Below, one piece after another: positions 13,166 to 43,182 of a stretch of DNA of 64,000 bases. The stretch lies in NCBI RefSeq assembly GCF_055900595.2, contig NZ_CM148325.1. One strand, 5' to 3'. The position numbers were made by a program, and so were the translations under genes. Under the pieces are notes generated by a model that saw only the letters and a program-made list of their open reading frames with translations, ran no database searches and had not been told where the DNA came from. How positions within the stretch are numbered: position 1 is the stretch's first letter; each line of letters starts with the position of its first letter.

Positions 13166-13867
13166 TCAGATAAATGCAAACGCATCGCCAAACAGGCGAT
13201 CTTCCCGCGCATTACGCTCACTGCAAAACAGGTCACGGGCAATTTTCGCCATCTCAAAACGTCCGGCAATATAGATATCATGCTCTGCCAGCGTGCCGTG
13301 ATCCTGCAATACCGCCGTTAACACGGTGCCAGTACGCCCACGCCAACCCGCTTCCGGTTGTTCAACCACCGGCACCACTTGCAGACCAGGATGCTTCAGC
13401 GAAAGCGCCTCAAGCTCGGAGAGATCATAAAGATGCTGCTCTTCACGCCCGCCCCAGTAAATGGTGATATCACGGTTTGGGTTACGCGCCAGCGCCGTCA
13501 GCAAAATCGAGCGCGCATAAGAGAACCCGGTGCCACCCGCAATCAAAATCATCGGACGTTCTTCATCATCGCGCAGCCACGCTTCTCCGTGGGGAATATC
13601 GACCACGATTTGATGATCTTTGAGAATACGGTCCATAACGGCTTTCGCGTAAAGGTTAATTTCAGAAGCGCCAATATGCAGCTCGATGAAACCTTTTTCA
13701 TCCGGCGTCGAGGCCATTGAAAACGGACGTTTGTCGCGCTCATCCATCACTACCATCAAATACTGACCAGCACGAAAAGAAAAGGCCGCGTCTGGTACGA
13801 TTCGGACACGGTATACGGTATCCGTGATAGCTTCTACCGAGGTCACTTTACAGCTTAAGGTTGTCAT
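13166..13867 (-). CDS. fre: NAD(P)H-flavin reductase
   Basis: Protein from [25 protein letters not shown]…, 233 aa; the ORF-track start at 13900 is an 11-codon upstream extension. Confidence 0.9.
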
Positions 13868-30807: not shown

Positions 30808-33069
30808 TTACCCCCGACGCAAATTCTGCGCCGCCTGCACCATGTTCGCCAGTGCCGCGCGGGTTTCTGGCCAGCCGCGCGTTTTCAGACCACAGTCCGG
30901 GTTGACCCACAGACGCTCTGCCGGAATGCGTTTTGCCGCTTTCTTCAGCAGGGACTCAATCCATTCCACGCTCGGTACGTTTGGCGAGTGAATGTCATAG
31001 ACGCCAGGACCGATTTCATTCGGATAATCAAACTCTTCAAACGACTCCAGCAACTCCATGTCGGAACGCGAGGTTTCGATTGTGATGACGTCAGCATCCA
31101 GCGCCGCAATCGAATCCATGATGTCGTTGAACTCGCAGTAACACATGTGAGTGTGGATTTGCGTGTCATCTTTCGCTACGGCAGCGTTGATACGGAAAGC
31201 CTCCACGCCCCACTGAAGATAGGCATCCCAGTCGCTGCGACGCAGCGGTAAACCTTCGCGTAGCGCCGGTTCATCAATCTGGATGATGCCAATTCCAGCC
31301 GCTTCCAGATCGGCCACTTCATCACGCAGCGCCAGCGCAATTTGTTTGGCGATGGTTTCACGGCTGACATCTTCACGCGGGAACGACCAGCAGAGAATGG
31401 TCACCGGACCAGTCAGCATCCCTTTCACCGGTTTGTCGGTCAGCGATTGCGCATACTTCGCCCACTCCACAGTAATCGGTGCCGGGCGGCTAACGTCACC
31501 AATGACAATCGGTGGCTTCACGCAGCGGGAACCGTAGCTCTGTACCCAACCGTTTTGCGTAAAGACAAAGCCATCCAGGTGCTCGCCAAAGTATTCCACC
31601 ATGTCATTACGCTCGGCCTCACCATGCACCAGCACATCCAGACCCAGACGTTCCTGCTCAACAATGGCCTGCTTGATATGTTCTGCAATGCCCGTACGAT
31701 AGTTGTTGGCGTCGAGATTACCCTTTTTGAAATCCAGACGCAGGGTACGGATTTCTGTGGTTTGCGGGAAAGAGCCAATCGTGGTGGTCGGCCAGGCTGG
31801 CAGTTTAAAACGCGCACGCTGGGCTTCAGCACGCACTTCATAAACGTTCGCACGCTGACTGTCCTGGGCGGTGATCGCCGACAGACGCTTTTCTACTGCC
31901 GGATTATGTACACGAGTAGAGTGACGACGCGCCTGAATCGGAGCGCTCCACCCTGCCAGAGCTGCCGTATCACCACTGTTCAGCGCATCGCGCAGCAATG
32001 CCAGTTCATGACATTTTTGCAGGGCGAAGGCAAACCAGCTTTTCACTTCTGCATCAAGACGCGTTTCCACGCTCAGGTCGATAGGGCTGTGCAGCAATGA
32101 GCAGGAAGATGCCACCCACAAATCACGTTTGCCGACAATGTCCTTAATTTGCGCATATTTCTCGGTAAGATCGGCGCGCCAGACGTTACGACCATTGATA
32201 AGACCAGCAGATAGCAGCCAGTCAGAAGGCAGACGCTTGTGCAGTTCAGCAACGTCATCTTTACCATGTACGAGATCGACATGCAGACCCTGAACAGGCA
32301 GCGCAGTAATGGTGTCGAGATTTGGCGTTACGCCTTCAAAATAGGTAGTCAGCAGCAGTTTCACCTGGCCCTGGAGCGCGTCGTAAGCGGGTTTATAGGC
32401 GTCCAGCCACGCCTGCGGCAGTTCCAGCACCAGCGCGGGTTCGTCGATCTGTACCCACTCAATGCCGCGTTTTGCCAGTTCTGCCAACACTTGCTGATAA
32501 ACCGGCAGAATGTCGTTTAGCAGGCTCAGGCGATCAAACTGTTCACCTTTCACTTTACCCAGCCACAGGTAGGTAACCGGTCCCAGCAGCACGGGCTTGA
32601 CCTTGTGGCCCAGCGCCAGCGCCTCGTCCACTTCCTCCAGCAGTTGCGTCCAGGTCAGTTTGAACTGTTGGCCTTTAACGAACTCCGGCACCATGTAGTG
32701 ATAGTTGGTGTTAAACCATTTGGTCATTTCCGCTGCCGCCGCAGGTTCGCCAGTCGGCGCACGTCCACGACCAATACGGAACAGGGTGTCGATATCTACC
32801 GAACCATCTTTGTTCTGGTGACGCGCCGGAACGTTACCCAGCAGCAGGCTGGTGGTCAGGACATGATCGTACCAGGCAAAATCACCCACCGGCAGCAGGT
32901 CGATACCTGCTTGCTTTTGTTGATCCCAGTGACGAGCACGCAGTTCACGCCCTACCGCCAGCAGTTCTTCACGCGTGGAGTTCCCCGCCCAATAACTCTC
33001 TTGCGCTTTTTTCAGCTCGCGACGCAGGCCAACGCGAGGGAAACCGAGGGTGTGATTAAGAATTGTCAT
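30808..33069 (-). CDS. metE: cobalamin-independent methionine synthase
   Basis: 753 aa starting [30 protein letters not shown]…. Confidence 0.95.
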
Positions 33070-33186
33070 TATATGCCCCTTATGGAATTTTTAGTATTTA
33101 GCCGTCCAGATGTTTACACATCCATAATTGGCGGTTACTGTATATTCCTCAAGCGCAAATTATTCATGCCGAAGTGAAGGACTTTC

Positions 33187-34140
33187 ATGATCGAAGTAAA
33201 ACACCTGAAAACGCTACAAGCGTTGCGGAACTGCGGCTCACTCGCAGCCGCTGCGGCGACGTTGCATCAAACGCAATCCGCCCTGTCTCACCAGTTTAGC
33301 GATCTGGAACAACGCCTTGGCTTCCGGCTATTTGTGCGTAAAAGCCAGCCGCTTCGGTTTACACCGCAGGGAGAAATCCTGTTGCAACTGGCGAATCAGG
33401 TGCTGCCGCAAATCAGCCAGGCACTGCAAGCCTGCAATGAACCGCAGCAGACGCGCCTGCGCATTGCCATTGAGTGCCATAGCTGTATTCAGTGGCTGAC
33501 GCCCGCGTTAGAAAATTTCCATAAGAACTGGCCGCAGGTGGAGATGGATTTTAAATCGGGCGTGACGTTTGACCCGCAGCCCGCGTTGCAGCAGGGTGAG
33601 CTGGATCTGGTGATGACCTCCGATATTCTGCCGCGCAGTGGCCTGCATTATTCGCCGATGTTCGATTATGAAGTGCGTCTGGTGTTGGCACCTGACCATC
33701 CACTGGCGACAAAAACGCGAATCACGCCGGAAGATCTCGCCAGCGAGACGCTGTTAATTTATCCGGTGCAGCGTAGCCGACTGGATGTCTGGCGGCATTT
33801 TCTTCAGCCCGCAGGCGTTAGCCCGTCACTGAAAAGCGTCGATAACACCTTGTTGTTGATTCAGATGGTTGCCGCACGGATGGGCATCGCTGCTCTACCG
33901 CACTGGGTGGTGGAGAGTTTTGAACGCCAGGGTCTGGTGGTCACCAAAACCCTGGGCGAAGGCTTGTGGAGCCGACTGTACGCCGCCGTTCGCGATGGTG
34001 AGCAGCGTCAGCCGATTACGGAAGCGTTTATTCGTTCAGCGCGCAATCACGCCTGCGATCATCTGCCGTTTGTGAAGAGCGCGGAGCGACCCACTTACGA
34101 TGCACCCACAGTGAGGCCAGGATCACCAGCGCGCCTGTAA
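33187..34140 (+). CDS. metR: LysR-family regulator of metE/metH
   Basis: 317 aa starting [37 protein letters not shown]…; divergent from metE. Confidence 0.92.
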
Positions 34141-42801: not shown

Positions 42802-43182
42802 ATGTTGCGTATATTTATCCCAACATCTAACGGTAAGATTTCCAGACGTCGTTATATATTTTCATTTATTTTAATAAATTTCATTTTTGCCTTTCTTATT
42901 ATCTTTTTTAACGATGGGGACGCAGGTTTTCTTGTTATTGTCTCTACCATCGCACTCCATTATCTCGTCATCAACATGAATTGCCAACGACTCCGTGATA
43001 GTGGTTTCATATATATAAAAACTTATGTTTTTGGTACATTAGCAGTATATATCATCTCTATCATCACAATGATAGCCGAACATTTTGATTGTTCAGGCAA
43101 TGGTTCGATGATTTTTTTGATTTGTTATTTTTCTACTTTCAGTATGCTAATGCTTGCACCTACTGATTCATCAAAACAATAG
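42802..43182 (+). CDS. yigG: small inner-membrane protein of unknown function
   Basis: 126 aa from [20 protein letters not shown]…; RBS AAGGA upstream of ATG 42802; conspicuously AT-rich. Confidence 0.75.

What the first reader, a model, noticed from the sequence alone, without database searches (positions are those of the whole stretch)
33100..33123. Tandem degenerate MetJ boxes in the metE / metR divergent promoter region
AGCCGTCC-AGATGTTT-ACACATCC forms three contiguous 8-bp units resembling the Met-box consensus AGACGTCT, positioned between the divergent metE and metR starts where MetJ repression is known to act.
Basis: partly seen in the sequence, partly recalled or inferred. Interest (0 to 1): 0.2.

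Follow-up and report, generated by a model that had tools for sequence, protein, structure and literature searches.

The report
Known MetJ operator between metE and metR
The 24 bases are the already-published three-box binding site through which the methionine repressor MetJ shuts off both the metE and metR genes of E. coli, so the finding is correct but ordinary.

Summary
Window 33100-33123 (AGCCGTCC|AGATGTTT|ACACATCC) lies in the 117-bp gap between metE (- strand, 30808-33069) and metR (+ strand, 33187-34140). The octamers match the met-box consensus AGACGTCT at 6, 6 and 5 of 8 positions.

The 24-mer is letter for letter the three-metbox site listed for E. coli K-12 metR/metE by Augustus & Spicer 2011 (Table S1, 21.08 bits; I get 21.06). 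It ranks first of 63,977 positions in the window, both with their matrix and with one built without metE/metR. It is the only site that passes their rule, and 1 of 300 random 64-kb sequences scores as high.

In 80 of 80 Enterobacteriaceae species loci the best three-box array sits exactly 63 bp upstream of the metR ATG. Substitutions in boxes 1 and 2 are all bases the matrix tolerates.

Inferred mechanism: three SAM-loaded MetJ dimers bind side by side over the metR -35 region and the start of the metE transcript, blocking RNA polymerase at both promoters. Primary footprint papers could not be read.

Side note: the window carries the short metE leader found in about 61% of E. coli genomes. It lacks the ERIC-like element of K-12, so the operator is 30 bp, not 149 bp, from the metE ATG.

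The parts
33100..33107 (.). Met box 1, AGCCGTCC (6/8 to AGACGTCT; 7.25 bits)
   Evidence: Varies among 80 species only A/G at position 1, C/A at 3, G/A at 5 and C/T at 8, all tolerated by the matrix or moving towards the consensus.
33108..33115 (.). Met box 2, AGATGTTT (6/8; 9.34 bits), the strongest and most conserved box
   Evidence: Seven of its 8 columns are invariant in 81 sequences, and mean column identity is 0.989.
33116..33123 (.). Met box 3, ACACATCC (5/8; 4.47 bits), the weakest box
   Evidence: It still clears the published per-box threshold of 3.1 bits. It becomes ACACATCT in many species and is degraded to ACACCGCT in 3.
30808..33069 (-). metE, cobalamin-independent methionine synthase (753 aa)
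   Evidence: ORF. Identical DNA is annotated metE in RefSeq.
33187..34140 (+). metR, LysR-type activator (317 aa)
   Evidence: ORF. Identical DNA is annotated metR in RefSeq.
33175..33187 (.). MetR-type palindrome TGAAGGACTTTCA (fits TGAANNWNNTTCA), probable high-affinity MetR site. Its last base is the A of the metR ATG.
   Evidence: It is the only match in the 64-kb window, where 0.43 are expected. Mean column identity is 0.994 across 81 sequences. Assigning it to MetR site 1 rests on the recalled consensus and was not tested.
33124..33152 (-). Candidate metE promoter: -35 TTGAGG (33152-33147), 17-bp spacer, -10 AATTAT (33129-33124), inferred start near 33117, inside box 3
   Evidence: Relaxed hexamer scan; the pair is kept in 81 of 81 sequences. 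No experimental start site could be retrieved. Inference.
33113..33141 (+). Candidate metR promoter: -35 TTTACA (33113-33118, inside boxes 2 and 3), 17-bp spacer, -10 TACTGT (33136-33141), inferred start near 33148
   Evidence: Kept in 81 of 81 sequences. An equally conserved alternative is TAGCCG(33099-33104)-18-CATAAT(33123-33128), which also lies over the boxes. Inference.
33070..33099 (-). Short (ERIC-less) metE leader and ribosome-binding region. K-12-type genomes have 149 bp here.
   Evidence: Alignment. The long allele is present in 2,100 of 5,426 E. coli genomes. Species survey gave 39 short and 40 long.

Best explanation
Window 33100-33123 is the shared MetJ operator of the divergent metE and metR genes: an array of three abutting 8-bp met boxes. 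By the established mechanism for MetJ, each box binds one ribbon-helix-helix MetJ dimer carrying the corepressor S-adenosylmethionine, and neighbouring dimers touch, so binding along the array is cooperative. This mechanism was not tested here. The array overlaps the -35 region of the metR promoter and roughly +1 to +20 of the metE transcription unit. When SAM is plentiful, the bound repressor therefore excludes or stalls RNA polymerase at both promoters at once. The MetR palindrome at 33175-33187 supplies the opposing homocysteine-dependent activation of metE. Shown here: the sequence, its statistical singularity, its identity to the published site and its fixed position across species. Inferred: the promoter placement and the steric mechanism.
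For: The 24-mer is identical to the published K-12 metR/metE three-metbox entry, with gap 63 to metR as in the window. The published score is reproduced, 21.06 against 21.08 bits. The site ranks 1 of 63,977 with the published matrix and with an independent leave-out matrix, and it is the only site that passes the published rule. One of 300 random 64-kb sequences scores as high. In 80 of 80 Enterobacteriaceae species loci the best three-box array lies exactly 63 bp from the metR ATG, and all score >= 13.0 bits, above the 12.58-bit threshold. Substitutions in boxes 1 and 2 are confined to matrix-tolerated bases, often towards the consensus. Metboxes accompany metR and metE in 122 of 122 Enterobacteriales and in most Vibrionales, Aeromonadales and Alteromonadales, and the Enterobacteriales metE and metR operators are marked as experimentally tested for repression (Table 2). 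That paper measured lacZ reporter repression and gel shifts for the known E. coli genes. CRISPRi knockdown of metJ raises metE promoter activity in K-12 (PMC10505187). [quoted passage not shown] The conserved promoter candidates place the boxes over the metR -35 and at the metE start.
Against: No binding experiment on this sequence could be read. The gel-shift figure is an image and the primary footprint papers are not held. Transcription start sites are inferred, not measured, and the built-in promoter scan found neither inferred promoter at its default stringency. The whole interval 33097-33186 is highly conserved, so conservation alone does not separate MetJ binding from promoter function. 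Box 3 is weak (4.47 bits) and is degraded in 3 species. In this short-leader allele the operator is 30 bp from the metE ATG, whereas the published work was done on the 149-bp K-12 arrangement.
Confidence: 0.93

Rival explanations
1. The array works as a two-box operator (boxes 1 and 2), and the third octamer is only a weak auxiliary or non-functional extension.
For: Box 3 scores 4.47 bits and matches 5/8. Boxes 1 and 2 alone total 16.59 bits and pass the published site rule. Two boxes are the stated minimum for repression. In 3 species box 3 is ACACCGCT and the total drops to 13-17.5 bits.
Against: Box 3 clears the published per-box threshold, and the published table counts three boxes. In 29 of 81 sequences its last base is the consensus T. 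Columns 33116-33119 and 33122 are invariant, although they also overlap the candidate metR -35.
Confidence: 0.12
2. The segment is conserved because it carries core promoter elements (the metR -35 TTTACA and the metE start region), and its resemblance to met boxes is incidental.
For: TTTACA at 33113-33118 lies inside boxes 2 and 3, and the inferred metE start lies in box 3. The flanking control region is just as conserved.
Against: The site is the single best matrix hit in 64 kb under a matrix that never saw metE/metR, and random sequence almost never reaches it. Box 1 lies outside the TTTACA hexamer yet is conserved, and its substitutions move between met-box-compatible bases. Metboxes recur at metE/metR in distant orders with different intergenic regions. 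metJ knockdown derepresses metE.
Confidence: 0.03
3. The operator controls only one of the two genes directly, and the other responds indirectly through MetR levels.
For: metH is repressed indirectly through MetR without metboxes, so indirect effects exist in this regulon. The start sites here are only inferred.
Against: Every conserved promoter candidate on both strands overlaps or abuts the array. The published title and text describe a common operator and common metboxes. Both the metE and metR operators of Enterobacteriales are marked as tested for repression.
Confidence: 0.05

Closest known systems
E. coli K-12 metE/metR MetJ operator (three metboxes; Augustus & Spicer 2011 Table S1; Wu, Urbanowski & Stauffer 1993 for Salmonella)
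   Same: The 24-bp sequence is identical, with three boxes, 63 bp to the metR ATG, and an identical 87-bp control region from the boxes to metR.
   Different: The distance to the metE ATG is 30 bp here and 149 bp in K-12, because this strain lacks the ERIC-like element in the metE leader. The ribosome-binding region and codons 3-4 of metE also differ.
Other E. coli MetJ operators (metA, metBL/metJ, metC, metF, metK, metNIQ, mmuP)
   Same: All are tandem, unspaced 8-bp repeats of AGACGTCT-like boxes near the promoter. The average of 7.0 bits per box here is mid-range, against 5.0 for metK and 11.0 for ybdH/mtnE.
   Different: This site has three boxes, against two at metC and four listed at metA, metB/J, metF and mmuP. 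It serves two divergent promoters and is paired with a MetR activator site.
MetR (LysR-type) activator sites, TGAANNWNNTTCA
   Same: A perfect match lies at 33175-33187, next to the operator.
   Different: It is a different protein with a different motif and the opposite regulatory sign.

Membership tests
MetJ operator (met-box array) | Two or more immediately adjacent 8-bp repeats resembling AGACGTCT | tested here: met
   Three abutting octamers with 6/8, 6/8 and 5/8 matches. The best register of all 63,977 in the window is 33100.
MetJ operator (met-box array) | Passes the published weight-matrix rule: each box >= 1/4 of the consensus score, and the site total >= the consensus score (12.58 bits) | tested here: met
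   Boxes score 7.25, 9.34 and 4.47 bits, total 21.06. It is the only three-box site in the window that passes.
MetJ operator (met-box array) | Score exceeds chance under a matrix independent of this locus | tested here: met
   The leave-out matrix from the other K-12 operators gives 20.6-20.7 bits and rank 1. One of 300 random 64-kb sequences reaches it.
MetJ operator (met-box array) | Located in the promoter or 5' region of a methionine-pathway gene | tested here: met
   It lies between metE and metR, 30 and 63 bp from their start codons. Overlap with the promoters is inferred.
MetJ operator (met-box array) | Conserved at the orthologous position in related species | tested here: met
   In 80 of 80 species loci the best array lies exactly 63 bp from the metR ATG, and all score >= 13.0 bits.
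MetJ operator (met-box array) | Identity with a site already catalogued as a MetJ operator | tested here: met
   Verbatim match to the K-12 b3828/b3829 entries of Table S1, PMC3228920.
MetJ operator (met-box array) | Direct, SAM-dependent binding of MetJ (footprint or gel shift) and derepression in a metJ mutant | not testable with these tools
   The literature reports reporter and gel-shift tests of the known E. coli operators and metE derepression on metJ knockdown. The figure and the primary footprint papers could not be read.
MetJ operator (met-box array) | The cognate repressor gene metJ is present in the genome | not tested
   I did not search the window for metJ. The window is E. coli (100% match), and metJ was found in 122 of 122 Enterobacteriales surveyed.
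MetR binding site | Interrupted palindrome TGAANNWNNTTCA upstream of a MetR-activated promoter | tested here: met
   A single perfect match in the window lies at 33175-33187 and is nearly invariant across species. MetR binding itself was not tested.

The most novel reading that the evidence does not exclude
The operator itself is not new, but its setting may matter. This window carries the short metE leader found in about 61% of complete E. coli genomes. It lacks K-12's ERIC-like hairpin, has a different ribosome-binding region, and is predicted to pair less well with the sRNA FnrS. Both leader forms are shared across genera with higher identity than the flanking genes. The most novel reading not excluded is that this is a maintained regulatory dimorphism, and that post-transcriptional control of metE as worked out in K-12 does not apply to most E. 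coli.
Probability: 0.15. Interest if true: 0.4.

Novelty: already known. Interest (0 to 1): 0.08.

Why it matters
The result confirms that the scan recovered a real, well-characterised regulatory site, so it serves as a positive control rather than a discovery. The operator couples SAM level to expression of the very highly expressed methionine synthase MetE and of its activator MetR. The only new angle is contextual. In this strain, and in most E. coli genomes, the operator lies 30 bp from the metE start codon in a short, unstructured leader. That differs from the K-12 reference arrangement on which the published regulation was worked out.

Tried and rejected
1. Primary papers could not be read: Marincs 2006, Cai 1989, Maxon 1989 and Thomason 2015 are not held. 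The gel-shift supplement is images only.

2. Experimental start sites could not be found. The Kim 2012 supplements have no metE or metR start-site rows, searched by gene name and by coordinate. Two literature searches for the promoter architecture gave nothing useful.

3. The built-in promoter scan at default stringency found only ATGAAA-18-AATAAT on the - strand. I rejected it as the main metE promoter because it is kept in only 39 of 81 species and its -10 falls on non-conserved columns.

4. A fourth box on either side was considered and rejected: extending the array one octamer to the left (register 33092) adds a box of -2.12 bits and drops the total to 14.47, and neither flanking octamer (33092, 33124) reaches 5/8 matches to the consensus.

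5. Other MetJ sites in the window were sought. The next-best candidates (13257; 42836, 10.86 bits for two boxes) fail the published rule, and 42836 lies inside an ORF.

6. A riboswitch or known RNA in the leader was sought. Rfam gave only sub-threshold hits (Ysr49, V_AS5; 27-28 bits against gathering scores of 95-96) over the K-12 ERIC-like insert, and nothing relevant to the boxes.

7. A literature search for ERIC at metE-metR returned only irrelevant papers.

Full report
**What is in the sequence.** Window 33100-33123 reads AGCCGTCCAGATGTTTACACATCC. It lies in a 117-bp gap between two ORFs. One is a 753-aa ORF on the - strand (30808-33069) and the other a 317-aa ORF on the + strand (33187-34140). 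Identical DNA in RefSeq E. coli genomes is annotated metE and metR. The 521 bp around the site match 5,425 of 5,426 complete E. coli genomes, one of them at 100%. Read as three abutting octamers, the segment matches the met-box consensus AGACGTCT at 6/8, 6/8 and 5/8 positions. No other octamer in the intergenic interval reaches 5/8.

**More than chance.** I reimplemented the half-box weight matrix and decision rule of Augustus & Spicer 2011 (PMC3228920). The boxes score 7.25, 9.34 and 4.47 bits, total 21.06; the paper lists 21.08. One consensus box scores 12.58 bits. That matrix was partly trained on metE/metR sites, so I also built a matrix from only the other K-12 operators in their Table S1 (52 half-boxes).
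- With both matrices the register starting at 33100 ranks 1 of 63,977 positions.
- It is the only three-box site in the window that passes the published rule.
- Among 300 first-order-Markov random 64-kb sequences, one reached the observed score anywhere. The expectation for a particular 117-bp interval is therefore of order 1e-5.

**Identity with the published site.** Table S1 of that paper lists, for E. coli K-12 MG1655, 'b3828 metR 21.08 3 7.03 63 agccgtccagatgtttacacatcc'. The reverse complement is listed for b3829 metE with gap 149. The 63-bp gap to metR is the same in the window.
- Metboxes were found at metR and metE in 122 of 122 Enterobacteriales, and both are marked as experimentally tested for repression.
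- The authors describe lacZ-reporter repression ratios and gel shifts for 'the known E. coli genes', but the figures are not readable here.
- Independent in-vivo support comes from PPTP-seq: metE promoter activity rises on metJ knockdown (PMC10505187).
[quoted passage not shown] It and the other primary papers are not held.

**Comparative evidence.** A scan of species-representative genomes with the MetR protein returned 80 Enterobacteriaceae loci. In all 80 the best three-box array within the metE-metR intergenic region (or, for the one locus where the metE start was not found, the 400 bp upstream of metR) starts exactly 87 bp, and ends 63 bp, before the metR ATG. Totals range from 13.0 to 26.4 bits.
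- Variation in boxes 1 and 2 is confined to A/G at box position 1, C/A at 3, G/A at 5 and C/T at 8. These are bases the matrix tolerates, and several changes move towards the consensus. Box 2 is almost invariant.
- Only box 3, the weakest, is occasionally degraded, to ACACCGCT in 3 species.
- The whole stretch 33097-33186 is highly conserved. Conservation alone therefore cannot separate repressor binding from promoter function.

**Surrounding anatomy and mechanism.** The MetR-type palindrome TGAANNWNNTTCA occurs once in the 64 kb, at 33175-33187, abutting the metR ATG. The chance expectation is 0.43 per window, and the site is almost invariant across species. No experimental start sites could be retrieved. 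A relaxed hexamer search combined with conservation gave candidates kept in 81 of 81 sequences:
- for metE, TTGAGG-17-AATTAT, with a start near 33117;
- for metR, TTTACA-17-TACTGT, with a start near 33148;
- or, for metR, TAGCCG-18-CATAAT, with a start near 33135.

With any of these, the array covers the metR -35 region and about +1 to +20 of metE. This agrees with my recollection of the Salmonella work (MetR site 1 at -48 to -71 of metE), which I could not verify.

From established knowledge of MetJ (ribbon-helix-helix dimers, one per 8-bp box, cooperative contacts between neighbours, SAM as corepressor), the most likely mechanism is as follows. Three SAM-loaded dimers occupy 33100-33123 and sterically block RNA polymerase at both divergent promoters. 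MetR bound at 33175-33187 provides homocysteine-dependent activation of metE. The sequence facts are shown here; the promoter placement and the steric mechanism are inferred.

**Rivals.**
- A two-box operator with a dispensable third box is possible, since box 3 is weak, but it is a nuance of the same explanation.
- An incidental resemblance caused by promoter conservation is very unlikely. The leave-out matrix ranks the site first, box 1 lies outside the -35 hexamer, metboxes recur at metE/metR in distant orders, and metJ knockdown derepresses metE.
- Control of only one gene is unlikely, because every conserved promoter candidate on both strands overlaps the array.

**Verdict.** The feature is an already catalogued operator, so novelty is nil and interest is low.

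**Noticed in passing: a dimorphic metE leader.** K-12-type genomes have 236 bp between metE and metR, and the window has 117 bp. The extra ~119 bp lie between the boxes and the metE ATG.
- The extra DNA resembles an ERIC/IRU element. It matches the ERIC2 and ERIC1R primer sequences, which I recalled from memory, at 17/22 and 16/22 in the expected arrangement. Rfam gives only sub-threshold hits there.
- The long form is in 2,100 of 5,426 E. coli genomes, so the window's short form is the majority.
- Among 79 species loci, 40 are long and 39 short, mixed within genera.
- Several Citrobacter long leaders are 95-99% identical to the E. coli one, although the flanking metE and metR DNA is 82-89% identical. 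One Citrobacter short leader is 29/30 identical to the window's. I have not explained this.
- The short allele also replaces the ribosome-binding region. K-12 has its published FnrS target there, at -17..+13.
- Using an FnrS sequence confirmed by Rfam (134.8 bits), predicted duplex energy is -17.0 kcal/mol for the long allele and -12.8 for the short one. Shuffled targets give about -10.4 +/- 2.6.
- The short leader RNA is essentially unstructured (-5.2 kcal/mol, z +0.85). The long one folds the ERIC hairpin and can pair CCUUCC with the Shine-Dalgarno sequence.

These are hints only.

Noticed in passing
window 33070-33099 (compare L001 501-649): The window has a 117-bp metE-metR gap, whereas K-12-type E. 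coli have 236 bp. The extra ~119 bp in the K-12 metE leader look like an ERIC/IRU repeat. The long form is in 2,100 of 5,426 complete E. coli genomes, so the window's short form is the majority.
   Followed up: yes
L003-L082, region upstream of position 1414 in each locus: Across 79 Enterobacteriaceae species loci the metE leader is dimorphic, with 40 long (ERIC-like) and 39 short, mixed within Escherichia, Citrobacter, Enterobacter, Kluyvera and Pluralibacter. Some Citrobacter leaders are 95-99% identical to the E. coli long leader while the flanking genes are 82-89% identical. A second long type of ~161 nt occurs in Salmonella arizonae and diarizonae. Selection versus short-patch recombination is not resolved.
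   Followed up: partly
window 33055-33090 (- strand, metE translation initiation region): The published FnrS sRNA target on K-12 metE (-17..+13) falls in the segment that differs in this allele: the Shine-Dalgarno sequence is AAGGGG instead of GAGGAAG, and codons 3-4 carry synonymous changes. Predicted FnrS duplex energy is -12.8 kcal/mol here and -17.0 for K-12, against about -10.4 +/- 2.6 for shuffled targets.
   Followed up: partly
window 33175-33187: The only TGAANNWNNTTCA (MetR-type) palindrome in the 64 kb sits here. Its last base is the A of the metR start codon, so the probable MetR site overlaps the start of metR's own coding sequence.
   Followed up: partly
window 33107-33108: At the box 1/box 2 junction, C-to-T at 33107 and A-to-G at 33108 each occur in 7 of the 81 sequences compared and fall in the same 7 loci, giving GTCC|AGAT or GTCT|GGAT. 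This looks like a coupled change at the inter-box step, which I recall is considered important for MetJ binding.
   Followed up: no
window 42836-42851 and 13257-13280: These are the next-best met-box-like strings in the window: AGATTTCCAGACGTCG (10.86 bits for two boxes) and a 14-bit three-box string. Both fail the published rule, and the first lies inside an ORF. They are probably chance matches.
   Followed up: partly
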